A DNA stretch of 58,174 nucleotides, the filler included, from Sphacelaria rigidula (taxonomy: Eukaryota), in the NCBI GenBank assembly GCA_964200075.2. It is 7 parts of 7 records of this genome, joined end to end, with 100 filler letters (N's around TTAATTAATTAA, not from the genome) between each part and the next. Parts side by side here need not be neighbours in the genome. Positions count along the whole stretch, not along the records: positions 49,951 to 58,174 come from CAXNAA020011861.1; 6 more parts are not named here. The stretch is one strand, 5' to 3'. The notes beneath the pieces were generated by a model that made no database searches, was not told the origin of the DNA, and worked only from the letters and a program-made list of their open reading frames with translations. The first letter of the stretch is position 1; each line of letters opens with the position of its first letter. Shown here piece after piece: positions 2,951 through 58,174 of this stretch. The translations under genes and the position numbers were made by a program.

Positions 2951-4639
2951 TGCAAACTATAAATTCGCTCCTGGGCTGGCCCAGCTCGTGGGGAAATGCG
3001 GTGTACTCGGGGACTAATGTTCGACCTCTGACTGACGATAAGTAACATAACATATTTTGAGTACTCGTAGGGGCTGCCAGTAAGGAACTCCAATCCGAAT
3101 AAGCGGAATTTCAGACTCGCAATTGCTTTTGGATCTTGACAGCAGCCACTACTTGCTATTAAAATATTTTTCATTACATATCATGAGGGACCTGGAGAGC
3201 GCACTAACCCTCCCAGCCTGAACCCATGTGACAACAGTATTTCAGTTTTGCTTGCAACGTGATGAAAAAAAGACCATGACGATTGACTTGAATAATGACT
3301 ATACTTGTTAATAACTGTGGTTATCGGCATTATTGTAGTGATTTAGTTCACCGTGTCGTGTGTCCGTGTGCGCCCCTTCTCGCTTTCGGTGTTGTTGGAC
3401 AGCTTCACATGCACAAGAGACAGCTCCGAATATCAAGAGGCATGGCACCTACAGGAACGGCGCATATTTTGATTGAACCGCTGCGCAGAGGGCGTATGCC
3501 AGAGACATTCCAAAAATACCCCCCTAACTTTTGTGCAGCTGGCTTGAAACAAATCTAACTTCGAGCTATTTTACGAGTACATACAGGTACTACAAGAACA
3601 CTATTTTTATCCCCCCTGATTGTCCACGTTCAGCACACAGGTGCATTAGTACAGTCAGTTAGTTCATGACAGTACAGTGAGATCTGATGGTTCAATACAG
3701 TGGTGCAATATAATGATACAAAACGCTACATACAGTAGTAGTATTACAGCAAAGATGGTAACAATAACGTACGATTACTGCTGTGGATGTAAGCGTACCG
3801 ACACATCACTGTTGTGTGCGTTCATCATAATTGTACAGTAGTGGAAAGCTGGACGCGAACAACGGGCAAACAGTACAACAGTAGCAGTAGGCGATACCAC
3901 CCGTTCTGAGGAAGGTTTGTTCGACAATAACGCAAGCATGAGCGTCGCAAAGAGCATACAGCTAGCGTACAGCTAGAGGTGGCTGAAGACGAATATAGAA
4001 CTGCATACCTTCTGCAGGCACAAGAATAGGATCGTATCGTACAGTACTACAATACAAAACGTACATGACAATCGCCAGAGGGGTCAATCGAGTGGGATGT
4101 GCCACAGTATTGTTGTGGTATCTAAAATTGGGCAAGGTGGGAGACATGGGGTGATTCAGATAATGCGACTTGCTGTACAAATAACAGGTGTGTTTAAAGC
4201 GGGTCTGTTTCCATTGACAGTTTTTAGTTGATACCACCTTCCCCGGCGAAACCGTCGTGTACGCAGTTGTACAGCTGTGCACGCAGTCGTACAGCTGTGT
4301 ACGTAGATCTACAAGGATGCCGCGAAGTGGTCTCGTGGTATTTCGCAAGTACCACGGTGTGCACAAGGCGTAGATACAGGTGAAGTATGCAGCAGTAGAG
4401 TAGACAACGGCATATTTCGCACGAGGTACTATGCAGCTCGAAGATTCCTCATTTGCGTGATCGGCGAAGCAGTATACGCTCGACATGTGTGTACCAAAGT
4501 AGGTTGCTGCTGGCACATCAGTGATCCAATGAAATCTACCCGCATATGACAGCCACGAGGTGGCGGTACTACTTCGTACCAGGTACTACTTCACACCACA
4601 GTAGGTACTCAAATCAAACGTAGTAGGCCGTGCGGAGTT

Positions 4640-8226: not shown

Positions 8227-8326
8227 NNNNNNNNNNNNNNNNNNNNNNNNNNNNNNNNNNNNNNNNNNNNTTAATTAATTAANNNNNNNNNNNNNNNNNN
8301 NNNNNNNNNNNNNNNNNNNNNNNNNN
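8227..8326. other. Artificial 100-bp spacer (N44-TTAATTAATTAA-N44)
   Basis: The same spacer recurs at 16553-16652, 24878-24977, 33203-33302, 41527-41626 and 49851-49950, giving near-equal blocks. Confidence 0.97.
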
Positions 8327-15472: not shown

Positions 15473-18405
15473 CTGTATCTGCTGTGAGTCCGACACAGAG
15501 ATATGTAATTGGGAGAGGGATCCTTAATGCCATATTCGAGAACAAACCGAAAATGGTGCTGCTACTAAGCTGCTACATCACTTCAAAAGCGGGGGTGTAT
15601 TCTACGAAAAGGGCACGAGGCGATGACGATTTTGCACCGTACTGAAGTATGGTGCGGTACGACTGTACCAAGTACTACCATCGCTGTACACTACAGCATA
15701 TCTGCAACAAATCCCTTTTTGCATGGGCGAAATAATCCCTCATGATTTGCCCATGATATTGAGTCCAAAGATATGGCAGGTAAGGGGGGTATTCGCGTAA
15801 CTGAGTATCTTTGGGGAAAGTCTACGAGTGGCATCTACAACATAGTGACTGACCTGACGTGTGGTAATGTGATTGGACACACATGTAGGGTGTTACACCA
15901 TATTTAGGCGTGTAGTTACATACGTGAAGTCTTGACTTGATGACACGGAGTATATGGTTCGAACACCATCTCACTCCATCTCATCACCGCAATCAGACTG
16001 GCTGAACTGCATCAATGAAGTATCTCAACAACTCTCCACGGGCATCCGAGCCAACCAACACCCAGCATGTACAGCAGCTACTAGCCTGTGGGCCGATAAT
16101 ACAAGAAGCATTTACGCCATCCACGGACTGCGATATCAGAGGTGTCGCTGGTCTTCGTCTAAAGTAAGCCTGGCTTCCCTGCAGCTGGTGTTGCCTCGAG
16201 CACGCGCTCGACGCACTGCAGGTGCAGAGTTACTGTAAACATTAGTTGAACCATCTTGCACGCACAATTATCATCGAGCTCGGTCGGATTCTGGTGCTTG
16301 CATGTCTTTTGAAATGACTGCTCGGGTGCCCATGAACTGACATCCTTCACCTCTAGACATCCACCGCGTGGTTCGTGACAGAAGGATGGAACCAACAGTA
16401 CAGACAGTCGGTGTAAGGCCGGGCCACTTCTTATAACCAGACAAAAATAAATGGGCAATACACAAAAAAGGGTACACCCTGCCGTCTGCTAAAAAATAAA
16501 AGATCGCAAAAGCACCCCTCTGAACTCCGGCCACGGCTACTGGTCGTACGCCNNNNNNNNNNNNNNNNNNNNNNNNNNNNNNNNNNNNNNNNNNNNTTAA
16601 TTAATTAANNNNNNNNNNNNNNNNNNNNNNNNNNNNNNNNNNNNNNNNNNNNTTAGGCGCTGAAACTTCGTCCGCATGTCGTGTATATTATAGGCAACAA
16701 CCTCATGTTGCTAAATCTGGAGTAGCGTTGTGGGTGCGTGCGTATCGGGGCGAAAAGATGTCGGATTCTGTTCCGAATCGAGTTTTTTTTTCTTTCGGCG
16801 CAACACTGCGTAGCGGGATCTGAGGTATGTGGAACGGGTACGAATGTGAAAAATCTAGGCTAATTAGTGTGAGGGCAATTGTGGAACGGTTGATGCAAGC
16901 AAATAGGTGAGTCACCGAAATTGAGATTTAAGCTTGGGGCAATGGGGGAAGATGATGCGGCAGCTTGGTTTGAATTATTTCTATCTTTTTACGATTTCCG
17001 AGGAAATGAGAAGAGGCGTATAGCAGGGATTGGGATAGCAGAGATGCAACACGCACAAATGTGCATGTTACGGTCTAGCTTGGTTCTGCGTTGCGTCACA
17101 TTTGATATTCATATTAATAACAAATACTCCACATTCATGAGAGGAGCAAATGGCTCCATCGACGGGAAGCGAGATCCCCCGAGTCTGTAGATCATCATCA
17201 TCGTACAGGCGGAAATGCGTAATTTTCGACACGGGAAATTTCGCGTTTAGCTTCGACAATTGGTTCTTTAGATGGAAAGGATCCAGACAGACACAACCAC
17301 AGTTATTGGTGACATCCAGCTCTCATGATGCATCCACGGTGGCCGTGAAAAAATAGTCTCAGACTGATCATTACACATTATGCGATTATTCAGCACGATA
17401 TACTGTGTGCAGACGGTGGTGACAGTATCACTGCTTCCGAGTGCCACGGGTGGCCGCTGGTAAACGGTATCCACATTTCATATCGTCTCTACGTTGTTAT
17501 CGGATGGCGCAGTATCGGTGGGTTTACAAGGGATACACCACGCGGCAGAGTGCGCACACACAACCTGATTCACGCTGCACGCACGCCGCTGGATTCACCT
17601 AGGATGCACCATAAACAAGGGGGGGCGCTCCGAAATGCGGAAAATATATACCAGCGGCAACCTGTGTGATAATACCCAGCAATATTATGTAGAGCAGCGA
17701 ACGCTTATATATTCGGTGAGGGACGGGGTTTTCAACACCCCTCGTTATGTCACAGCTTTCAACCTCTATTTTTATTTTTCTCTCGTCAGAGATCATGCTG
17801 CACTTCTAGCGACGTCGTACTGTACGTCGATCTCTTGATGGAAGTGTTCACAACGTTCGATGGTGATTATACGGATTTCCGCAGTATCCTCATGCATCTT
17901 ATTGGGTTTGGAGGAGTTCGAAACCTATTATCCCAACCAAAGAATATTAATTTTATCCCAACGCTTGTTGTAAGCTTCAACGAGCGGTGACTCATCTATC
18001 GAACGAAGATCCAGGGTCTGGGTCAACGACCTAAAAAGTTGGTGAACGGCAAAATCGGGGTCCCACGTTATGGAACAAGCACCGTCTCGGACACCCAGCC
18101 GTATCGCCCCTGCCTCCCACAGTCACTCCCACACCACTCCAACCATCTACACTTGCACAGCTGCTTCCTCGCCCTCTTCTCCCCTCACCTCCCTGCCCTA
18201 CATACACACCACATCCACTTCCAACTTCGCGCCCACCCATACAACCCTGCACAGCCAGTTGCCTTGCCCCCTTCTCCCCGAATCTCCCTGCCCTAAACAC
18301 CGCATACTACATCCACCTTCGCGCCAACCCATTGAGAACATGAAGCTGGGTCTACACATCACCACGGGAGTAGCGGTTGTTGCCGTCGTGCTCTCCCCGA
18401 TCCAG

Positions 18406-23778: not shown

Positions 23779-26438
23779 GGAGGCGAACCACGCCATCGAA
23801 GAAAGCGCATGCACCTTTGTTTCCTAAAGCAACAAATAAATAATCGAAAACGTGCATGGAATCCGTACAAGGATGGAATTAATATAAACCCTCTTCTGCG
23901 TCATTTGAAGATAGTCCTGGGACGCGTTGAATGCTTTTCGCTGAAATCTTTGTTGGCGGCATGGTGGAGAGGAGACGCTACTGGATAATAATCCTGTGCG
24001 AACAACGTTGTAACCGATCCTTAGTGTGACAGTCACTATAATAATAGGTCCAGATGGGCTCTTTTTGTATCCATCACCGAAGAGATCAGCTTCGAAAATG
24101 AGGTTGAACAATAAAATTTGTTTCAACTCCGAAAACGTTCTTTTCCGAACCTGAAGTCATGACAAACGACTTTCATTCTAGCGACCTCATGCCCCCCGAC
24201 CTCCCTCGATTGTTACTGGACTTTCCTGCCTTCCGTTCCTCTATAGGTGGGGTATATAAAGTAAAATAATAAAATCAGACCTAAAAGCAAGCCACACAGA
24301 CGCGATACAACAGGAATAAATATTCAAACAAACGAGCAAATAAAATATCAGAAAAAAAAAGGAAATAGGAAGGGAAAAGGAATGCTGCTATCCCTCCAAG
24401 TTCCGACGCCGTATGCGACCATTCGGGCTACCGGAGGCAGGACCCACTGGTCCACTCAACATGCGAGGCCGAACAGGAACGGAGCCAACTCGAGAGCCAC
24501 GGTCACCATATATTATATATTTGTACAAATAAATCGAGAGTGTTCACCATATAAGATGGTGTAAAAATGGCGGGTGATTTCTGCTGATTATCATGTTCTG
24601 AACCAAAGGCTATGACATTACACATAGGCAGTGCACTTTTTTCTGCTCCGATTGTCCGATACTAAAATATATATGAAAAATAATAAAAAAATAAATCGTC
24701 TGTGACCCACAGACGGTGCAGTTGGATATATATATATATACACACACAAAATGGATACATAGGTAGTGACTTGTTTCTGTTCCGATTGTGTCCTATACAA
24801 AAATATATATGAAGAGTCATCCTACGATAGGGGGGGCGGTATTTGGTTGCACGAAAAAAGAGGCTCATAAGTGTATCNNNNNNNNNNNNNNNNNNNNNNN
24901 NNNNNNNNNNNNNNNNNNNNNTTAATTAATTAANNNNNNNNNNNNNNNNNNNNNNNNNNNNNNNNNNNNNNNNNNNNGCTTTGTAGGGATGCGAGGTCAA
25001 TGGTCTGATGACTATGGCATGTATGATTATGAGTACACCCTCTCCTCAATCGTATCCCAAAATCCCTGTTCCTCATCAGAGCAAACACCTGCGCCGCGCT
25101 ACTGTATAATGAGGGTACACCGAATACTTCATTCCCTATTAGCAACGCGTCTCGATGGAGCACATTCGATATGGCGGTTACATTCGTGGCGCGTGCCTGC
25201 GAGGGGTCGATTGCAGCTCAAGATCTCACGGCAGAAGGTAACGCAACAGCGCGAACGAGGGTTGACTAGAAAGCAAGTAATACATTAATCGACCCAATGG
25301 GTTCAAAGCAAAGCGTTCCTGTCGAAGAAGTGAGCACGAAGATCGCAACGCGTTCGGCATAGCTATAGCCCCCCCCCCGAAAAAAAAGCTCTCGGTGATG
25401 ATCGAACCACTGACGCAAACCCCATATATTTTGCGCTGCACACTTGTGTCGTATGATTAACTTCACCGACGTATTGCGATAATGTCGTGGAACCCTATCG
25501 ATAGACGATCCTGAAAAAATGATGACCCGTATGACCGGAGCCCTGCGAGAGGTTCGGGAATCAGACCAGAAGAAATTTCAACGAGTGCGCATCACGAGTC
25601 GGACTCGTACTCATACTCGTTGGATCTATGTTACTGTTGTGCATCGCACCGAAAGTTTCGATACACCGTACCGAAATATCGACCAAATATCGTACCGAAA
25701 TTATTTCGATATGTCGATATCGAAGAGGATGACTGAAGGAACGCGGTCATGATGGCGAGGGTGCTTGAGCAGTTCAAAGACACGGTGGGCGGTGACAACC
25801 TCGACCTGGCGCAATTCTCCCATGGCCGTCTTGAACGCCCACATCGAGGGAGAGGTCACGGTGAAACAAAAACAATATCTGGATGCACACAGCATGCCAT
25901 AATCCCGCCAAGGTTTCAGGTGTTTGGAATATGAGTTGAGCTATTTTTAGCATTATGCCATCGTACATGGCAGATTCTTCACCTGCAAGCACTCGGCAAG
26001 CACACAAGTGGAAACCCAAAATAAAATATCTTGACGTAGAGATCCTCAACCAAGTGGTGGTTTTCTCAATGTATTAACGCGGCCATATATTCAAGTAAAA
26101 CTTATTTACAAGCTGGGCCAGCTGACAGTGATTTTGTAATGTTTCGAGTCAGGCGGTGCTCAATTTGAGTAGCTAGGCGCTGAATTTTTGACATAACGAT
26201 GTTTCATCGACATGCACAGCATCTCACAGGATGCCGAGAAAAAAAAAAGTAGGGTACTGTAGAGCGATTTGAAATTCCAGCAAAAACATGAAAAATGTCA
26301 TAGTTCTGTGAAAAAATATAAAACGGCGGCATCCCCAAAAATGTTGTGTGCACTTGCGTGCAGGAGATTCTGGTAAAATCTCGGCTAAAAACTTCTAAAA
26401 TTGGGCCCAGCCTGGCACTTCTTGTATTACACCGCTGC

Positions 26439-31704: not shown

Positions 31705-33839
31705 AATTTGACGGAAATCGCGTTCTGCGCACGCGTGCAGCAGTTGGGGCTGTCAGCCCCTCTCTTGCCCCTTCTTGAAGGAAATTATTCCCTTCTTCAA
31801 AATCCCCTTTCCGAAAAATGACCGCTGATTGGTCGCCGCGATATCGCCCCCCTAAAAAAACCCCCTCAACGTGCACTGAAATCCCCTCCTCTGGGGAGAT
31901 TGCAGGAAGTGCATACACACTTGTTGAAATTCCTATTTGAAAAGGGCATTTCTCTGCACCTTGGAGAGGAACATATATGTAAATTATTGCTACATTGCGC
32001 CCTATAGATGTTTTTTAGTATTGAAATAGAAAGGTTTTCACGTGTTTGAAAAAAAAATGAGACCATCACCTAAATGGAAGTTGAATAACTAAACCTGAAA
32101 TTAAGGACTTGAACTAATAACGTCATTTAAATATATATAGTAATTAATATTGTAAAAACATGAGACTGTATAACAGAAACACGTTGCAAGGGGCACATGC
32201 AAAGGCCCACCAAACAACTCAGCACCATCAGAGCTATGCACGTTGTGCGTTTTTCAGAACTCATTAAAACATTATGATTTGTGGGAGATGCGCACAGCAC
32301 ACACTCACAAAACAGTCAGCAACGACATGTCTTTGACATGCACGCGGCCGCCATTCGTCCAATACAAAACATATTTCCATTTAAACAAAGACTGCCGTGT
32401 GTATATTAGCGAGGGCTAGCAGTGAAACTAATGCGCGCGGGAGGTAGGTGTCTGTGCGTGTTTTTTCGGGGCTGGGTGCGTATGTGATGTGTTGGCTTGT
32501 TGGGCCTTGCCTGCAGCATTACGCAGACCTTGGACTAACAACCATTTCCGGGCCCGCCGCATTTCTGAACCTGCGGAAGACCCGGGGCTCAATCTGTCCA
32601 AAAATGATTCACGATAGGACTCAGGATTGGTCATTATGGGGTCAATTCCCTCTCGAAAAGGGATGGTGAAAAAGGGGATAATGTCTTTGTTGAGATTCAA
32701 CGATCGTGTTGACGCTTGGGTCAAGCATAAAAATTCCGGGAAGGTCCTAATCGACCAATTGGTGAACACTCGGGGGGAAATCTGGAAGCCGGTAGAGAGC
32801 GGATAAACTTTGAAATATTTCTCGACGACTTTTTTCCATTCGCTGCACCCACATCTACCAAACTGCCAGGTTTAAGGAATTATGAAAAGAAAACATCCAG
32901 AGGCTGACTGGGCCCTCGATGCGTTTCGTCAGTGAAAACCCGACGACGCCAAAACCTCACTTCACCGTGATACCACGCTCGATCCCACACAAACCGTTTT
33001 CATATGTGTATTTCACGGTGAGGACAAATCATCACGACTCAAAATCACGAAAATCACGATGTATTCGGCCTGATCGCCCGAAAGGGAGAAGAAAGTTGAT
33101 AGCTGATCCAAGGGGTATCCATGTAACTTTTGCGCCATTCCACGTGTGTGGGCTGCGTGTACCTGGGCTGCAACGCTGAAATATAGCCTAGGGATTGATT
33201 CGNNNNNNNNNNNNNNNNNNNNNNNNNNNNNNNNNNNNNNNNNNNNTTAATTAATTAANNNNNNNNNNNNNNNNNNNNNNNNNNNNNNNNNNNNNNNNNN
33301 NNGACGGGCTGTCGGGATGCGGGTGGGTGGGCTGGGGGGTCGGGGGGGGGGCGTGGTGGGGTGGCCGGAGGGGGCTATCGTAAAAAGTGTCGTAGTCTAA
33401 AGAACGCCTCCGAGAAGCCCCCTGGGATATATTTCCCAGGCTTCTTGATATGGGGAGAACGTAAAAAAGCACTGCCGCTGGGAACAGTATGTATGTATGT
33501 ATTACTCGAAATTTTCATGTGGCGAAGAACGTTTCCGATGAAGAACGTTCCCCTATCGTCAAGCCAGATTTACCGCGTCCTCCTTGTTTTGTGTCTGTTT
33601 CGTTTCGTCAATGAACCGGCGCGGAGCCATTGTGGCCTCGTCGAAACAAGGTGTTGGAGTTGCGGGTGCGAAAGAGCCAATCAGAGAACGTCGTTCAAGA
33701 GTTGGGTCACTTTTACTTGCACATTTCATCTACCTTTCCATGTTGTTGCAAGACCTCGAGCTAGCAAGAGAACGAAAGGAAATAGACAAGGCCGAACACG
33801 TCCACAACGCTTTTGACGTCCGTCTTGTCGATGATTTAG

Positions 33840-41526: not shown

Positions 41527-42796
41527 NNNNNNNNNNNNNNNNNNNNNNNNNNNNNNNNNNNNNNNNNNNNTTAATTAATTAANNNNNNNNNNNNNNNNNN
41601 NNNNNNNNNNNNNNNNNNNNNNNNNNCATCGCCAAGCGACGCCAACAACATCGGGGGTCCGCCCCTACAAAGCCGGGACGGAGCACGCCGGGTTCTCGCC
41701 GGATCAGGCTTCGGGGGGGCGGGGGGGGGGGGGGAGGGGCACGTGTTCAAGGGCCATACCAATGAACGTTTTCCGATACCAATTTTTTTATTGGCCAACG
41801 CTCAACATCCACGTGTTCATGTCGAGTAGGCGCATTGTGTAACAACGAGTTGACCCCAAGTACAGCCTGCTTCACCTTGGGCAAAAAAGGCAATCTGACG
41901 GAAAATGGCCAAGGGGTGAAGAGGCAATTGCTATGGTTAAAAAATATACGTGACTCAAGGGTTGGGGACCGCGTAATACACGGCATGCCATCACTGGGAG
42001 TGGTGCGCGCAAGGAGAGAGCCACCGTAACGGTACGGGCCAGGGCAACCCTGTGCGCACGTTTTGAAAGTCATTTGGTTCTTGCTTTTTGAAGAACCCTG
42101 TGCGATAGCCTCGGCCTGTGCGTTCTCTTCGATACCTGTTCGGAAGTCGAATCAGTTCTCTTCTTGCTTTTTTGGCGCACCCCTTGTGCGATAACTCCGA
42201 TACGCGCGAAACTAAAAATCTCGCAGAGGGGTAAAGCCCCTCTGCTCGGTACCGAATAAATGAAAACAACTTCATTTCGAGAAATGCACCGTCACGACAC
42301 CAAACGTACAACGATGGAACCCCGATGATATACTGTATCGCGATATGAAAGCACTGCGACAAACCGTTGCAGCACAGCAAGTGCCCCAGAGCCCTCGCGG
42401 AAGCACGCAGCCTTATCCCCGATGGTGAGGTTTTCCCGGATCCACCGCATCCTTGTACAGGCTCTCCGATACCTGTGAGAATCTGGCATTAAATCGTTTT
42501 GTCCTTGCTTTTGTAGCGTCCTCCTGTGCTTTTGGTGCGTGCTGTGCCCTAATCCCGGACGGTGCCCTGATCCGCATCCTTACGGTGTTCTGGTATAGCG
42601 TCGGGGTTACCGAAGCTGGTGGTCAATGCATGATACTGTTCCGAAAAAAAGGTCCGTCCCCCACGAGACTAGGATCGCGTATGTTATGTGATATACGTGC
42701 GCTGCTTTGACCTCCGATACCCGTCACTCTTTTTGTTTTGCCCTTTTCACGCTTGTAAGTAACCACACTCCCGATTATCTGCAGGGAAAGGTGAAC

Positions 42797-49577: not shown

Positions 49578-49964
49578 ATCATATTCACCGCAGCATGTGT
49601 GTATCGAAATTTGTTCAGTGTGTGCTACTACAACCGGATTACCCATGCCGTCTGTGAACGTGTGTCAAATTTGTCAACGAAACCTGCTGGCAATGTCTGA
49701 ACCAGTTTGACCTCGAAAGGGGGGATCGTCATGGAGGGGGAAATAAGCCGGCCCCATCAACCATCAATGGTTAGACACCCACGAGGCAGTGTCGAAGCTG
49801 TGACTGTCTCTGGAAGTGGTGATACCATAAAACAAAGCAACTCATTGTAGNNNNNNNNNNNNNNNNNNNNNNNNNNNNNNNNNNNNNNNNNNNNTTAATT
49901 AATTAANNNNNNNNNNNNNNNNNNNNNNNNNNNNNNNNNNNNNNNNNNNNAAACAGTTCGCAAG

Positions 49965-50810
49965 TTGGGTTGCCCACTTGAGCCTCAATTCAGAGTTAAA
50001 CCTCAATTCTCACAATTTGCTGTTAACTCTATTCTCGACAGATTTGGCATGGGAAGCTGCAAGCCTCTCAGCATCCCCGGATTCGGTCCAGAGCTGTCGG
50101 TGAAACAGGCAGAGGAGACGCTACTCAACGCCGAGGATAAGCAGCGATACCAGACCATCATTGGTTCCGTCATGTACTTGGCTCAAATCACCCGCTACGA
50201 CATCATGTACTGTGCCAGTCAACTTGCACGGGCGATGTCGAACCCTTCGAAGATCCACATGGGAGCAGCAAAGCATCTTCTTCGCTACCTCTTCGGGTCT
50301 AAGGACTTCAGCATCATGTCCAAGAAAGGGGGATTGGACCTCACGGCATTCTCAGACTCCAACTGGAGCAACAACCCGGACAACAGAAAGTCCATGTCAT
50401 CGTACACCATGATGATGTCCAAGGCGCCGGTGAGCTTCAAGTTCGGACTTCAAAGCCTGACTGTCATGTCTACTATGGAGGTCGAGCTGGTGGCTGCAGC
50501 ACTCGCGATGAAGGAAATGATCTTCTGCAGCAACATGATGACGGAACTGGGATTCGGATATGAGTTCACGAGCGCGCCACTGTACATCGACAACACCGCT
50601 ACACTCAACGTGATCGGCAACCAGACCTTCAGCGGGCGCACAAAGCATGTGGCACTACGCTTCTTCTACGTCCGCGAGATCGTGAAGGAGGGGGGGATAT
50701 CCATCCACTACGTTCCGACCGAAGACAACCTCGCCGACATCGGAACAAAGCACCTCAACAAGCAACGTCACAAGTATCTCATCGACAAGATCACGAACTT
50801 CGGGACGTGA
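49965..50810 (+). mobile_element. Second Copia family: RT C-terminus and RNase H, 5'-truncated
   Basis: YQTIIGSVMYLAQITRYDI...AFSDSNW...MSTMEVEL...DNTATL...RTKHVALRFFYVRE...NLADIGTKHL. Homology starts near 50025. Confidence 0.92.
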
Positions 50811-51544: not shown

Positions 51545-54144
51545 TCAACAAGTCTACAGCAGTAGCGTCACCTACTACCTGCAAACTAGCTGTAACGACT
51601 AACGTCTGTCGGTGTCAGCCTTTGCTATCACCTGCCGGGAACCACACGGAAATCCTGCAATAAATATAGCTCATCTACGAACATGAGCCAGTATGTGCGG
51701 GGAAATTACGGGGTACAGTATTCTAAGTATTCTAGGTATGTTACGCAGAAGGTTTCTTGTGGTTGAGGAACGTCAAATCGTTCCGCGTTCCTATATATTT
51801 GGGATATGTATTCCTATCTACTGTAGTTCGACTCATGCGCTAGCTGGAAATTTTGAATCGTGAGCAGTCCGGATAAGGTGGTGCTTTACGCACTTCTTCC
51901 TCTAAACTCTCTTCGCCCAATGTCCTTCGTGTGGATAGTAATTAATTACAGTATGAAGACACATTGAAAAGAGATAGTGATCTGTTTGGGCACACAGCAC
52001 GGGGCTGGCGGTGCTACACCCGTCATTTGATAAACATTTTATCAGCTTCACAGGCGAACATCGCTTCGAACAGCACATATATTGTTTTTCGTCGACATCG
52101 AGCGAGTTACGTTCTGGGACACACGTCCTCCTAGAGCTCTAGACGGCTCGAGTCAATGAGGGTTTTGGGCCAGTAAATTGGTTCCAGGCAGCGAAAGGGT
52201 TTGTGTTTTCAATGTACTACTTGGTGTGCGGTGAGCTTGCATACATGGTGTCGGGCACGACCCAGGAAATTACTTTTGACACCTGCCGAACTTCAAATGC
52301 CGGCAGTGCAAAAACATAAGCACGTTGTCACCAACCTGAGTCGGAGCAGTCAGCAGAGTGGTCATCGGGCGCTCGTGATTCAACACATATTATTTTGTTT
52401 TTCGTCGCACGTTGAACTTCTCCCCTCCTTCGGGATGAGTCCGTGGTTTCAAGGGATCAACTCATCTCTCCCCAGGTACGCGCCTTGCACTTTGGTCTCG
52501 CGGATTGGGTCGGCATTCCTGCACCGCGTCAACTCACCTCAAACAGACTCAGTCGACTGCTTTGCTACTCGCGCTTTCACGCTTTCCACAGTGGGAATCA
52601 GACATTCCGAAAGAAAACCCAACGCATCGGTAATCGAACCGTCGTTTTCTCCACTCTAATGGCGGTAGTCGGACCATTACACCACCGGGGCGCTTTATAC
52701 AACACAGACGAATTGATTGTTGTCTAATATCCCATACCAAATATGCCGGTCAGTAAGACCCTCTACTTCTCTATTCGCACATGAAATCGAATCAGAACCC
52801 CCCCCGAGCGCTTGCGGTTCGTATGTGGATGGCACGCAAACGCAGCTATGTGTTGAAAGATAGGTAGATGACAAACCAAACCCACTGCTGCTGGACCGGA
52901 CAACAGCCAACATGCTGGGAAGCTTCACGCGTCACATCATTCCGCCCACGAAGTGTCGCCACAGGATGGCCACAACCAGATTTGCTGCCGTGGGAAGACA
53001 AAGAGTGTAGTACCGCAAAAATAAAGCACCAAGAACATCACATCTTCCTGCCAAGTACGCACATCGATCTACATGGCCTGCGTGGCCAACTACAATCGTC
53101 TTTCGCCGAACGTCTTCACTCCGCTGTTCTCGTGCGACACTGGCAACAATAGAATTCTTCTCGAGCGCACTGGCGAATTCGCCACCTTCGACAGTACAGA
53201 AGAAGGGCCTGTATCGACCCGCGAAAGTCAACGACGTTGAACTCCGCAGATCGTACACAGCCCTGTGCTTCCGCCTCTTACCACTGGCGAGAGGGAGAAC
53301 TCTGGTGCAAGCGCCACCATTACTTACGGTATTAACGTGGACGTATAATGCCCTAGTACTTTGTACGTATCTGTTTCATTCGAATATCATATAAACATCT
53401 GGGATACCACATCACGGAGTCCGCCGCACACCACACGCACCGCCATGAAGCGCTATCGTCGCTACAGTTTTCTCATACTTTAGTGTCGCCTTCTGGTATT
53501 CAGAGCACCTACGTAGTATGGTGCCTGACACCAATAAATTCGTAAAAGACAGGTGTACATATATGTCAAGCGCGACCTTTCCTCCACATAAATGCACCCC
53601 GAATACGCAGAAGCACACCACGAGACGGCGACCGGCGGTATTACCATTCATTCAATGCAAGGATCAGCGTGCATTCCTACATCGTCATCAAGTGCCTCCA
53701 GTAAATGACCTCCGGTATAACCCTGGAGCTGCGGATTGTCATGGATCAACTCCTGATTCGACAACAGCTCGTCGTGGCCTCGCGACAGAAACACTGAAAA
53801 ACATCCCACACACCATGCAGCACTTTGTTGTGCATGAACTACGCAGCTGTTGTAGGCGATGCCCAGTACCACCCCAGAACGGAACGAGAGATTCCGAACG
53901 TAGCAAAGACTGCACACTTTTGCGAAGCACACACAGCCGGTGCGTCTCAACGAAGAGGCTGCCCCCAACAGTCGTTCAGCATATGACCTTTTCGATCCCC
54001 TTTACCACAAGCAGGCCTCGACAACACTTGCTCCAATTCCTTGTACTGGCATACTCGTGCCATTTCCGCACCCAAAGTCATCTGACTACCAGCAAATTGG
54101 TAGCCCTGGTCCTTCACTAAAGCTTGAAGCAGAGGATGCATTCT

Positions 54145-57100
54145 TTATGAAAAGATGTAAACGCTGATTCTGTTCCGTCCGCCGCAGAATTCGTCGGGGT
54201 CACCAGCGCACGCCATGGTGCAGCCGGTGGCCGGAGTGTCGGGCGTGTCAGAAGATTCGCCACAAAAGCACTGCAACATTGGTGGAAGGTAGTGGGAAAC
54301 AAAACGACGTGTGAATTGAGATATTCCTCGAAGTTATTAGCGGTAATACAACCGCGGTGCAAACCGCGGTCCTCCGAACTACTGGAATTCCGTACGCGCA
54401 TATCGGTGTTTCTAAGTGCTTTCGAGCATTGCAATCGAGAACCTCGACAAATGAATCTCGTTGCGGTTGCACCAAGGTCGCAGGAACTGAAAGCGGTTCG
54501 CTCTCAAGCAATGCAGAGTGACAGGCTTGACAACGATATTTTGTGAAGCTGAAGCCCAACTTCGTTACCTACAGGTATCTCAATCCCCAGCCATGGAAGG
54601 GCCCTGCGTCCATCACCCACCTCATTGGAGAATTCGGTGCCGAACTTGGGATAGTCGGTGCAGAATTCCGCGCATACCTGTGAAAACCACCACGGACACC
54701 ACCACGGCGGAGTTCAGTGCGTACACCGGGGGAAATGGCGTGACGGGCACACGGTAGCTGATTCATGGCGTCGAATACGCAGAGACATGAGGCCACTCGT
54801 CGTGCATGAATGGATCCTACCTCAGGAAGCAGCTGCCAAAACAAGTTCGATTGTCCCAATTTTCACAAGACTCCGATTACCAATTCCGAAACGGCACGAG
54901 AGGACACCTGCAGGAGCGAATCTGTGGGACAAGTCGGGGGGTTCAATGCAGTGCCGTAAAGGGCAAAGGTCCGTGGCATATCGCCATGATATTTTGATGA
55001 GATTGAGAAGATCCCGCCACTTCGAAAATATGACCGGAGCAGCGAACGTGAGCACTATAGTAGCTCTAAAGCATCTCCGAAAATCACGTTGTAGCATATA
55101 AGTTCCCGGTATGGTAAAACATCCTCCATTGTCTAGTCACCTCGGCAGTCATATCATCACTCCTAAGGGACGGGCCCGTGAGCACCCGGGCGCCGTCAAC
55201 CCAATCAGCGTAGCAATCGTCGAAAGTGTAGGACAGACTTGGAGTAGGCGTAGGACCACCAGCAGTCGGGACAGGCGTAGTCGGAGTAAGCGTAGTCGGA
55301 GCAGGCGTAGGCGTAGGTACAGGGGTCGGGGTGGGCGTAGGAGGTTCATCAGCCGGGGAAGGCGTGGGAGCAGGGGTCGCGGGAATGCACGCGACCACGT
55401 CGGGTCCCTCGTAGTTGGCGACAATCACCTGCGGACACGAAACGCGCATGAGAAGAGAGCAGCTCCAGTTGATACATGAGATAAAGCCACATGTCAACTG
55501 TACGTGCGACCGTGTCGGTAACTTGGCTTGTCCAACGCATTTGGTCGCAGGGCCTCACGGACGTGTTTCATCCATCGAGGACCTCTTCGCGGGGAAGCAC
55601 GGAACAACTCAAAATATTTTCCTGCTGTGCTATCGTGAGAATAAAGCGAACTGACCGCGTTGTCGTCCAGAGTCCCTGCATTGTCCTGGGTTGGAGAACC
55701 GGTTGGCTGGTCGGCCGTGGGGTACACCACATCGGGGTTCGACCAGGCGTGCAATCCGAAGGAGAATATCCCCAGACCGCACGGTGTACCCATGAGAGTG
55801 TAGAAGTTTCCCCTGAACAATAAGTGATTCAGATCATGGCAGGCAAAGATGTGCATGAACAACTTGATTCACGATGGTGGGTGCGATAGTCGTCGCAATA
55901 CCAAGCGGGTGTGGAACGAACTACCCTGAACACGCAACGCGGTATCACTGCAGGGGCCGCAGCGGTGGCTACATTTAGTATGCTTCAGAGTTTGAAGTGC
56001 TCCGTACTGATAGCTGTAATGCGTGAGAGGACCGCGTGCTTAGAGGACCGCGCCGTAGTTCAAAACGCCTCAGGATAGATTTTTCAAACCCAATCGAGCC
56101 AGTCCCTGCAGGTACCACGCCCCTGACTTGAACCCTAACACTAACCCTGACCCTGACCCTGACCCTAGGGAGGTTCAAATTCCGATGCGGTCCTCTAAGC
56201 ACGCGGTCATCTCACGCATTATAATAGCAACCGTTATTGCTTTCCTCAGCCAAGTGCGCATGAAGATTACGTGGTCACCCGCAGCTTTACCTCGTCCCTG
56301 TGTTGGCTATATGAAATAATTTTACATATATACGCTACCAAAGTAAAATGATCGGAAAAATACACCGGGCAAAGCATCATGCTACGGAGTACGGAGACCA
56401 CGAACTTTTAGGCGCGTGTATGACTCGCCGACACGACGATACCCAAACATGTAGCGTGTGACACTGCACGGAATAGGCGGTGCCTTTTTAGGCGGTGCCT
56501 TCTTACGCCATTTGTCTCGCGAGTGTACAAATACCATTGCGGCGGGTGAGAATCAAGAATTAGCTTTCTCACAGACCAGGGTCCTCGCAGTATTGGTAGC
56601 CAGCGATGCTCGTTGCGCCCAGGTTCTCGCCGATCAGCTTTGAGTGTGCATACTGGAAGAACGAGCACCAAGGATCCACAACCGAGTAGGCGAAAAACCT
56701 TCCCAGCCCGATTGGGTAGCTGCGTGCGGTGGAAAGTATGGGAAGGACAGAACAGGACGGCGATCGTCAGAAGACATCGAAGAAAATCGAGGCAAGCAAG
56801 ACGGTGACCCTGTTTGTTCATGGTCTTTGGTATCACACGGCTTGGTTTGGAAACGGCAGTCGGCAGGACACGTCATGTACCCCCACATATCACACGAGGC
56901 GGGTTTGATTTGAGAAATGTCGTGTTGTTCTGGCTTTTTGCCCCGATACCACAATCCGACAACCGCCATTCATGTTCAGCCTTCTGAAAGATGCCAGCGA
57001 TGTTGTTTTATCTCACTCGACTGTTTTCTTGAGTATATCATGCGATGTATCGAAGGTACACATGACACCTCAAGTCCTGCACCACTCACGCCTGCCCGCA

Positions 57101-58174
57101 GGAGCTGTAGTCAGCCGGGTGGAACACTTGCACGAGGTCAGCCTCCACGAAAGTCCGATACGCCTTAATCTGGGTTGAGTGTTGACCAACGAGCATGCGA
57201 AGAATAGATAGACTCGTGAGTACAACATCCAAAACGTACACTTCCACCAGTGTTGTTGCCGAATCAATCAGTGCATCCACGCTCCATGATAAGGTATCGC
57301 GTCGGTGAACGCCTTTATTCGATCTATTATGCTGATATTCTGACCACTCGGAATAGCTTCGCGTGTCGTCTCAACCCAACCGACATGCGTTAACGCTTGC
57401 TTTTACGCGTAGCAGGGCGACAGATACATGTGTGCGAACAGGTCCAGCATTTGGTACAGTCCAACCAAACGATGGCATGGTATTCAGCAAAGAATATAAT
57501 GTGAGCACAAAGAGCTCTTCGGCTTTGCCGGTGAGAAAACGAATGAAAAACGCGTCTCAAACCGATGTCACTCTGATGTTCTCGACGAACAGCCGGCGTC
57601 AACCAAGGCATAGTGAAGCAAAAACACAACTTCGAGGGGTCCTTTCAGTCTATGAAAATGACGGTTCTCGATCACGCGGACATTCCCTGTGGTTTGATAC
57701 ATAGTCTCACATCGGGGTGGTTCTTCGCCTCGTAGAGAGTGTTTTCCATCGAGTCACCGACCGGAAGCGTGTCGGCGGGATCCTGTGTTGAGAATGGGGC
57801 AACGAATGTCGAGCGAAACAAAAGGAGAGATTCAAACCAGAGGTTGTCAGTTTGTAGCGTCAAAAAACAAAGTCAAGAGGAGACGTATGTAATCAATCGG
57901 GTGCCCACTTGAGGAGTAACTAGAACTACGTATCGAAACTCGGTAATGCAACTGCTGACACAATTTGTGAGGGGGTGGATACCCTAACTATCAGCTTTCC
58001 TGAAGCGTGTGAGGCAGGCGGAGTATGTCGCGCGAAGGGCTGAAGGACGGTTTCTACCATATGCTCCCAGGTGACCGGGCCATACACTCATTATTGTGAG
58101 CAAGCAAGGAGCTCCTGCTGTAGGCTTTCCGTTCGCCTCACCTCAAGAATAGTGTCCAAGTGTATGATATCCGT
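54145..58174 (-). CDS. Reprolysin (M12B)-like domain lacking HExxH, Pro/Thr stalk and C-terminal WSC domain (5'-partial)
   Basis: Eight phase-consistent GT-AG exons: 58174-58142, 57782-57711, 57169-57090, 56719-56573, 55812-55656, 55428-55141, 54677-54621, 54270-54145. Motifs ADLVQ...CGQA, AYSVVDPWC, IGENLGA, FYTLMGTPC, WSNPDVVY, PTG...DNA, VANY; WSC CYAD...RVL...DMTAEVCAEFC...FGTEFSNECFCG...CTMACAGDPDEFCGGRNRISVY. Confidence 0.85.
56017..56233. mobile_element. Intronic MITE carrying telomere-like repeats
   Basis: 35-bp inverted repeat taatgcgtgagaggaccgcgtgcttagaggaccgc / gcggtcctctaagcacgcggtcatctcacgcatta (1 mismatch); internal aaccctaacactaaccctgaccctgaccctgacccta at 56131-56167. Confidence 0.8.

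What the first reader, a model, noticed from the sequence alone, without database searches (positions are those of the whole stretch)
54145..58174. Intact gene for a zinc-dead reprolysin-like domain tethered to a WSC domain
Seen: most exons are invisible in the ORF track, but eight splice cleanly with no internal stop or frameshift. Known: M12B/reprolysin-like peptidases carry HExxHxxGxxH and a Met-turn. Here the flanks are kept (AYSVVxxxC, NLGA, TLMG Met-turn, SNP..PTG..DNA) but the motif reads YAHS-KLIGE-NLGATSIAG, so the His ligands and catalytic Glu are replaced (exon 56719-56573). Inference: a maintained pseudo-protease on a Pro/Thr stalk, bound to wall polysaccharide through WSC, possibly a decoy, adhesin or scaffold.
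Basis: partly seen in the sequence, partly recalled or inferred. Interest (0 to 1): 0.72.

Follow-up and report, generated by a model that had tools for sequence, protein, structure and literature searches.

The report
Seaweed zinc-dead protease-like wall protein
This is a real, spliced brown-seaweed gene for a protease look-alike that has lost every residue needed to hold zinc and cut, and it is one of many such disarmed copies in a family of probable cell-wall proteins.

Summary
Eight minus-strand exons give an open 319-residue frame, and all seven introns are joined in RNA-like runs but not in a DNA-like run. The 5' part is cut off by the contig end. The product is a reprolysin-like metzincin domain (90.5 bits to a family profile, shuffles at most 0.3), a 49-residue Pro/Thr stalk and one 8-Cys WSC domain. 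HExxHxxGxxH reads KLIGENLGATS: three His and the catalytic Glu are replaced; the Met-turn and Cys pairs stay. No alternative HExxH exon lies on the contig. It is not a one-off: 12 of 24 zinc-motif exons recovered from this genome are degenerate, against 2 of 23 in other algal proteins. A dead Undaria relative folds as a metzincin, nearest the O-glycoprotease CpaA (Z 26.1). No orthologue was found, so dN/dS for this gene is untested. Best reading: a maintained, secreted, non-catalytic wall protein whose dead domain binds rather than cuts; partner unknown. Dead metzincins are known in animals (ADAM22); I found no paper on this algal family.

The parts
58142..58174 (-). First visible exon, cut by the contig end; probably the tail of the exon holding the second strand of the metzincin domain (inferred from paralogue exon layout)
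   Evidence: (joint 57781/58141)
57711..57782 (-). Exon 2, helix before the ADLVQ strand
57090..57169 (-). Exon 3, ADLVQ strand and SSCG cysteine (C59)
56573..56719 (-). Exon 4, zinc-motif exon; phase-2 borders at both ends as in paralogues; C80, C106; loop after NLG 5 residues against 16 in most paralogues
56608..56640 (-). Dead zinc motif KLIGENLGATS (His to Lys, Glu to Leu, His to Glu, His to Ser)
55656..55812 (-). Exon 5, Met-turn (M118 at 55793-55791), C122, SNPD, PTG and DNA motifs
55141..55428 (-). Exon 6: end of the metzincin-like domain, Pro/Thr stalk, start of WSC
55237..55383 (-). Pro/Thr stalk, 49 aa (20 Pro, 15 Thr, 13 Pro-Ser/Thr pairs)
54621..54677 (-). Exon 7, middle of the WSC domain
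54145..54270 (-). Exon 8, end of WSC and stop codon; no transmembrane segment or tail
   Evidence: (PF01822, E 2.6e-5 on this exon alone)
52475..54144 (-). Probable 3' UTR of about 1.7 kb (covered by several separate RNA-like contigs; none spans it whole)
   Evidence: tables 2 and 8

Best explanation
A maintained brown-algal gene for a secreted, non-catalytic extracellular-matrix protein. Shown: it is spliced; it descends from the algal reprolysin-like + Pro/Thr stalk + WSC family; all zinc ligands and the catalytic Glu are gone while Met-turn, four cysteines and core motifs stay. Inferred: it is exported like its full-length relatives; the WSC domain holds it on wall carbohydrate; the stalk (probably O-glycosylated) spaces the head away; the zinc-free metzincin head is a binding module for wall or adhesive (glyco)proteins, plausibly the substrates of its active paralogues, which it tethers or shields instead of cutting, as ADAM22 binds LGI1 through its dead domain.
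For: Seven of seven introns joined in RNA-like runs, the dead exon joined on both sides at depth about 4,800 in X1 and 3,400-4,400 in X2. Family profile without the query: 90.5 bits, best of 500 shuffles 0.3. Collinear with Undaria P0004 (intact motif) and P0056 (dead motif) from catalytic domain to WSC. Replacement codons are each at least two changes from His or Glu codons. 12 of 24 motif exons in this genome are degenerate, 6 lacking all four residues. All 28 pairs among eight dead paralogues have dN/dS 0.23-0.68. Dead relative P0056: catalytic domain pLDDT 86-97, metzincin matches to CpaA Z 26.1 (rmsd 2.0, 202 aligned), ADAM8 Z 17.0, ADAM22 Z 16.9. Four full-length relatives begin with a hydrophobic, signal-like stretch. 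WSC proteins are listed among brown-algal wall proteins (PMC8307928, figure legend).
Against: No partner or ligand was identified. The gene's own 5' end, and so its signal peptide, was not found. The query's branch is very long (1.7-2.2 changes per column against a median near 0.3), and dN to paralogues is 0.72-0.94 at dS 0.93-1.87, which also fits relaxed constraint on the head. Dead-pair dN/dS is higher than in the four intact pairs tested (0.12-0.29). No orthologue was found. The query itself was not folded. The role of WSC domains in brown algae is stated as not established (10.1101/307165).
Confidence: 0.55

Rival explanations
1. Vestigial head: the working part is the WSC domain on its stalk (a wall lectin or AGP-like structural protein); the dead domain is a spacer drifting under relaxed selection.
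For: Long branch; high dN to paralogues; cleft loop 11 residues shorter than in most paralogues; WSC still 49-51% identical to relatives while the head is at most 38%. The pseudopeptidase review notes ADAMs whose dead domain seems superfluous (PMC11266112, conclusion passage).
Against: Met-turn, both cysteine pairs and the ADLVQ, AYSVV, NLG, SNPD, PTG and DNA motifs survive that long branch. The short loop also occurs in intact-motif paralogue L076, so it is not a sign of decay. Other dead paralogues keep dN/dS below 1 in the same exons.
Confidence: 0.22
2. Decoy or regulator: the dead copy soaks up inhibitors or microbial effectors aimed at active paralogues, or pairs with an active paralogue to control it.
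For: Family expansion with recent duplicates (L078/L115/L116; L071/L073), mixed active and dead members and fast change are typical of conflict-driven families (own knowledge).
Against: The cleft has lost the zinc and most of the motif, which zinc-directed inhibitors need (own knowledge); no infection or stress data were examined; no interaction was tested.
Confidence: 0.15
3. Rewired catalytic or metal site: Glu93 with nearby His87 or other residues binds a metal and supports a different chemistry.
For: Glu at the second-ligand position can bind metal in other folds (own knowledge); the Met-turn is kept.
Against: Lys, Leu and Ser at the other three positions; His87 is a family-wide residue also present in intact members; dead ADAMs also keep the Met-turn (PMC11266112 Table 2).
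Confidence: 0.05
4. Transcribed pseudogene or assembly artefact.
For: Gene cut by a contig end; no database protein for it came up.
Against: Open frame over eight exons (p about 4e-7), GC3 bias (p about 1e-9), precise splicing of all introns, and the motif exon covered in RNA-like and DNA-like runs, where the one difference shown in it is synonymous (159 rows of that table were not shown).
Confidence: 0.03

Closest known systems
Brown-algal reprolysin-like (Pfam Reprolysin_3/4/5) + WSC proteins, e.g. Undaria P0002, P0004, P0056
   Same: Same domain order and collinear alignment; paralogues in this genome share the motif-exon borders and the intron after the WSC start. P0056 is also degenerate (HWYGHNLGCRD) and is the best match to the head (53 bits).
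   Different: All four catalytic residues lost here (P0056 keeps two His); one WSC instead of three in P0056/P0009; loop 11 residues shorter; orthology to P0056 not shown.
Non-catalytic ADAMs (ADAM11/22/23, ADAM2/18/32, UNC-71)
   Same: Metzincin M12 domain with replaced zinc motif and kept Met-turn, acting by binding (PMC11266112 Table 2 and section 2.3 passages); ADAM22 matches the dead relative's model at Z 16.9.
   Different: No disintegrin, Cys-rich or transmembrane part; WSC and Pro/Thr stalk instead; a separate lineage whose nearest database relatives outside algae are bacterial-type reprolysin-like proteins.
Acinetobacter CpaA (MEROPS M72, O-glycoprotease cutting at Pro-Ser/Thr)
   Same: Closest solved relative of the family by profile (E 1.1e-13) and by fold (Z 26.1); shares the CG and pre-motif cysteines.
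   Different: CpaA is active. Its Pro-selecting Trp493 (PMC7542363) aligns to Gln in the query and to Leu, Ile, Arg or other non-Trp residues in the algal rows aligned, so its specificity cannot be carried over.
Yeast Wsc1-type wall sensors
   Same: WSC domain on a Ser/Thr-type stalk (layout recalled; sensors described in PMC8307928).
   Different: Here WSC is C-terminal, followed by the stop, with no transmembrane segment or tail in the visible part.

Membership tests
Active M12B/reprolysin-like metzincin peptidase | Three zinc histidines in HExxHxxGxxH | tested here: not met
   Lys89, Glu93, Ser99
Active M12B/reprolysin-like metzincin peptidase | Catalytic Glu | tested here: not met
   Leu90, codon CTG
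Active M12B/reprolysin-like metzincin peptidase | Met-turn | tested here: met
   M118 aligns to the nearly invariant family Met
Reprolysin-like family (by descent) | Sequence homology over the catalytic domain | tested here: met
   90.5 bits against a 55-sequence profile, best shuffle 0.3; single exons do not reach any Pfam Reprolysin model
Reprolysin-like family (by descent) | Metzincin fold of this protein itself | not testable with these tools
   Only the dead relative P0056 was folded; the spliced product is not an accepted input
Reprolysin-like family (by descent) | Signal peptide and pro-region | tested here: inconclusive
   5' end off the contig; not found; hydrophobic N-termini in four relatives
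ADAM/SVMP proper | Disintegrin and Cys-rich domains after the metalloprotease domain | tested here: not met
   Stalk and WSC follow, then the stop
CpaA-type O-glycoprotease (M72) | Trp493 selecting Pro at P1 | tested here: not met
   Gln in the query at the aligned place; numbering offset 21 taken from E520
WSC domain (PF01822) | Eight cysteines and profile match | tested here: met
   C235, 261, 265, 279, 281, 295, 299, 307; 49-51% identity to WSC domains of P0009/P0056; last exon alone 24.8 bits, under the 27.8 cut-off as a fragment
WSC domain (PF01822) | Carbohydrate binding | not testable with these tools
   needs a binding assay
Wsc1-type membrane sensor | C-terminal transmembrane helix and cytoplasmic tail | tested here: not met
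   highest 19-residue hydropathy 1.02; stop right after WSC
Pseudo-metallopeptidase (ADAM22-like mode) | Catalytic residues lost, gene still expressed | tested here: met
Pseudo-metallopeptidase (ADAM22-like mode) | Binding partner for the dead domain | not tested
   no candidate partner was available

The most novel reading that the evidence does not exclude
Brown algae run an enzyme/pseudo-enzyme system on their wall glycoproteins: intact members are CpaA-like glycoproteases that clip Pro/Thr stalks of WSC and AGP-like wall proteins (their own family's stalks included), and dead members, arisen several times and about half of the family in this alga, bind the same sites to shield or cross-link them. 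This would be an independent parallel to active and inactive ADAMs in animals. In this copy Lys89 and Glu93, one helix turn apart, may fill the empty zinc site with a salt bridge.
Probability: 0.15. Interest if true: 0.78.

Novelty: new variant of a known kind. Interest (0 to 1): 0.47.

Why it matters
How brown algae build and remodel the protein part of their wall is little known, and the role of their hundreds of WSC proteins is open (10.1101/307165 counts 320 and 444 in two Ectocarpus genomes). This family offers matched active and dead members with the same architecture, so substrate and partner can be sought side by side. Dead members slip past domain annotation: P0056 and P0009 reach only the WSC cut-off in Pfam, so some 'WSC-only' algal proteins are hidden pseudo-proteases. 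For the single gene the result is a well-supported instance of a known principle in a lineage where I found no report of it.

Tried and rejected
Neighbouring contigs C11862 and C11863 as the 5' continuation: rejected, the window is a linker-joined chain of contigs of near-equal length and they gave no family match. Search for the 5' contig by the last 80 bases (self only) and by two paralogue exons (no hit cut at a contig end): not found. Orthologue searches: exon 4 by shared words, 1 candidate, none scored; exon 5 against 1.84 billion representatives, 3 hits, two read and found to be unrelated repeat proteins, the third (P0008) not read; single-exon queries are weak, so this does not show absence. 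Alignments of staggered exons on a full-length relative misaligned and were dropped. Independent loss of the motif in this gene: not shown; the tree leaves it unplaced and the AU test does not reject joining the main dead clade (p 0.37; with L068 p 0.13); three changes on the best tree. Short loop as a mark of death: rejected, intact L076 has it. CpaA-type Pro specificity: key Trp not kept. No listed holder run is on record as RNA. Polymorphism as a selection test: not usable, 159 of the table's rows were hidden. Three look-ups in earlier findings returned nothing. The motif regex picked a shifted window for L065, L069, L071 and L073; their motifs are taken from the alignment, and their class (degenerate) is the same.

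Full report
Setting. The window is not one genomic stretch: six linkers of N44 + a 12-base six-frame stop + N44 divide it into contigs of about 8.2 kb. The finding lies on the last one, G000:C11861, whose end is the window's end. Homologues are labelled Undaria, Laminaria, Ectocarpus, Scytosiphon and Ascophyllum, and four database proteins labelled Sphacelaria rigidula carry the same motif exons as G000 loci L058, L064, L066 and L071. The organism is therefore a brown alga, and those four proteins were counted as same-genome, not as independent.

Gene model. Eight minus-strand exons with seven GT-AG introns give 319 residues and a stop at 54145. The first visible exon is cut by the contig end. 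Laid on the region, runs X1, X2 and X8 show a joint at each of the seven introns and run X5 at none; three intron-only bins away from repeats hold depth 16 or less against thousands on exons. The runs are contigs, only guessed to be RNA, so depth does not rank expression; X1 and X8 look like one data set. The dead exon is joined on both sides at depths like the other junctions, and no joint skipping it is among the 15 shown (17 were hidden). Intron 2 is reported with three letters between the sides, which is a synonymous difference in the first codon of exon 3. Cover runs to about 52475, a 3' UTR near 1.7 kb. An open frame of this length at intron composition has p about 4e-7, and third positions are 66.8% G+C against 49.8% in introns.

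What it encodes. The N-terminal 172 residues score 90.5 bits against a profile of 55 relatives that does not hold the query; the best of 500 shuffles scores 0.3. The alignment puts KLIGENLGATS on HExxHxxGxxH without a gap, so His, Glu, His and His become Lys, Leu, Glu and Ser. Each codon is at least two base changes from a His or Glu codon, so this is not a fresh mutation or one sequencing error. No HExxH occurs in six frames of the contig. Met118 of the Met-turn, cysteines 59, 80, 106 and 122 and the core motifs are kept. A 49-residue stalk (20 Pro, 15 Thr) and one WSC domain with eight cysteines follow; there is no transmembrane segment in the visible part.

Family in this genome. An intact paralogue found with PF13583 has the same phase-2 borders on the motif exon. 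Searches from it and from relatives led to family exons on about 30 contigs, from which 23 further motif exons were recovered. With the query, 12 of 24 are intact and 12 degenerate; six lack all four residues. These are lower bounds, since only the best candidates are scored and the queries had intact motifs. Eight dead copies form a clade (97/89); L115 and L116 are near-copies of one of them and were not in the trees. Over exons 4 and 5, all 28 pairs among those eight have dN/dS 0.23-0.68, against 0.12-0.29 for four intact pairs (simple counting method, 47-107 codons): constraint is weaker but present. The query's branch is 1.7-2.2 changes per column and its place is unresolved; a shared origin with the dead clade is not rejected (p 0.37).

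Other species. A profile of exon 5 gave 539 hits, 120 listed. Among listed or earlier proteins from other algae with the motif region, 2 of 23 are degenerate: Undaria P0056 (HWYGHNLGCRD) and Ascophyllum P0047 (third His to Asn). Left out: two partial proteins, one without the region, Tribonema P0080 (intact), two of unstated origin (intact) and the four same-genome proteins. P0056 is the best match to the query's head (53 bits) but orthology is not shown. No orthologue came.

Fold. The spliced product could not be folded. P0056 with its alignment gave pLDDT 86-97 over residues of about 200-420. Foldseek and VIA both rank CpaA first (E 6e-12; Z 26.1, rmsd 2.0, 202 aligned), then venom metalloproteases, ADAM8 and ADAM22 at Z about 17; the family profile also finds CpaA first. 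CpaA cuts before glycosylated Ser/Thr after Pro, with Trp493 aiding selection (PMC7542363, passages). The query's stalk holds 13 Pro-Ser/Thr pairs, which prompts the idea that intact paralogues trim such stalks; but Trp493 is not kept in the algal rows, so this stays a lead.

Mechanism. Shown: spliced gene, family descent, loss of catalytic residues, kept scaffold residues. Inferred: secretion, wall binding through WSC, glycosylation of the stalk, and a binding role for the head. I put about 0.92 on 'maintained and non-catalytic' and 0.55 on the head working as a binding module; a vestigial head (0.22) and a decoy or regulator (0.15) are the main rivals.

Literature. Searches for brown alga + WSC domain + metalloprotease (one unrelated review), reprolysin + brown alga (none), Ectocarpus + WSC + peptidase (three), WSC + metallopeptidase + Phaeophyceae (none), reprolysin-like + Ectocarpus (none) and searches found no account of this family. 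Seen as passages only: 10.1101/2024.02.19.579948 (five WSC orthogroups expanded), 10.1101/307165, PMC12879055 (WSC fused to PR-1), PMC8307928, PMC11266112 (dead ADAM motifs; no mention of algae), PMC7542363. The other papers were seen as search listings only. The library lacks most subscription papers, and the closed supplementary tables of the two preprints could list these orthogroups.

Verdict. A real and well-supported pseudo-metzincin; a new variant of a known kind. The added point of interest is that about half of an expanded, apparently undescribed algal family is disarmed. Interest 0.47.

Noticed in passing
window 8227-8326, 16553-16652, 24878-24977, 33203-33302, 41527-41626, 49851-49950: Artificial linkers (N44 + 12-base six-frame stop + N44) join separate contigs of about 8.2 kb; neighbours across them are not genomic neighbours.
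   Followed up: yes
window 56017-56221: Element in intron 4 with 58-nt inverted arms (81% complementary) around a telomere-like core; DNA depth about a million in its bin, so a very high-copy MITE-like repeat (the label is my recall).
   Followed up: partly
window 52412-52823: A second high-copy repeat at the far end of the 3' UTR (DNA depth 120,000-390,000).
   Followed up: no
window 49951-50810: Open frame of about 285 aa that looks from memory like a Ty1/copia reverse transcriptase-RNase H fragment; Pfam gave no match at E 0.01, so the label is unconfirmed.
   Followed up: partly
L078 (G000:C12617), L115 (C786), L116 (C9411): Three near-identical dead paralogues with motif WMFAVNLGCFE and the same 11-residue-shorter loop as the query; intact L076 (C794) has that loop too.
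   Followed up: partly
P0056 residues 30-200: The N-terminal region of the family aligns in part with the pro-domains of ADAM17 and profragilysin (model range 30-422, Z about 16), suggesting a kept pro-domain even in a dead member; model confidence there is only moderate.
   Followed up: no
P0047 (Ascophyllum): Reprolysin-like head lacking the third His, joined through a Pro/Thr stalk to a von Willebrand D domain instead of WSC: the head is shuffled onto other matrix modules.
   Followed up: no
Outside brown algae and Tribonema, the nearest relatives listed are bacterial-type reprolysin-like proteins, which hints at a bacterial origin of the family; not tested.
   Followed up: no
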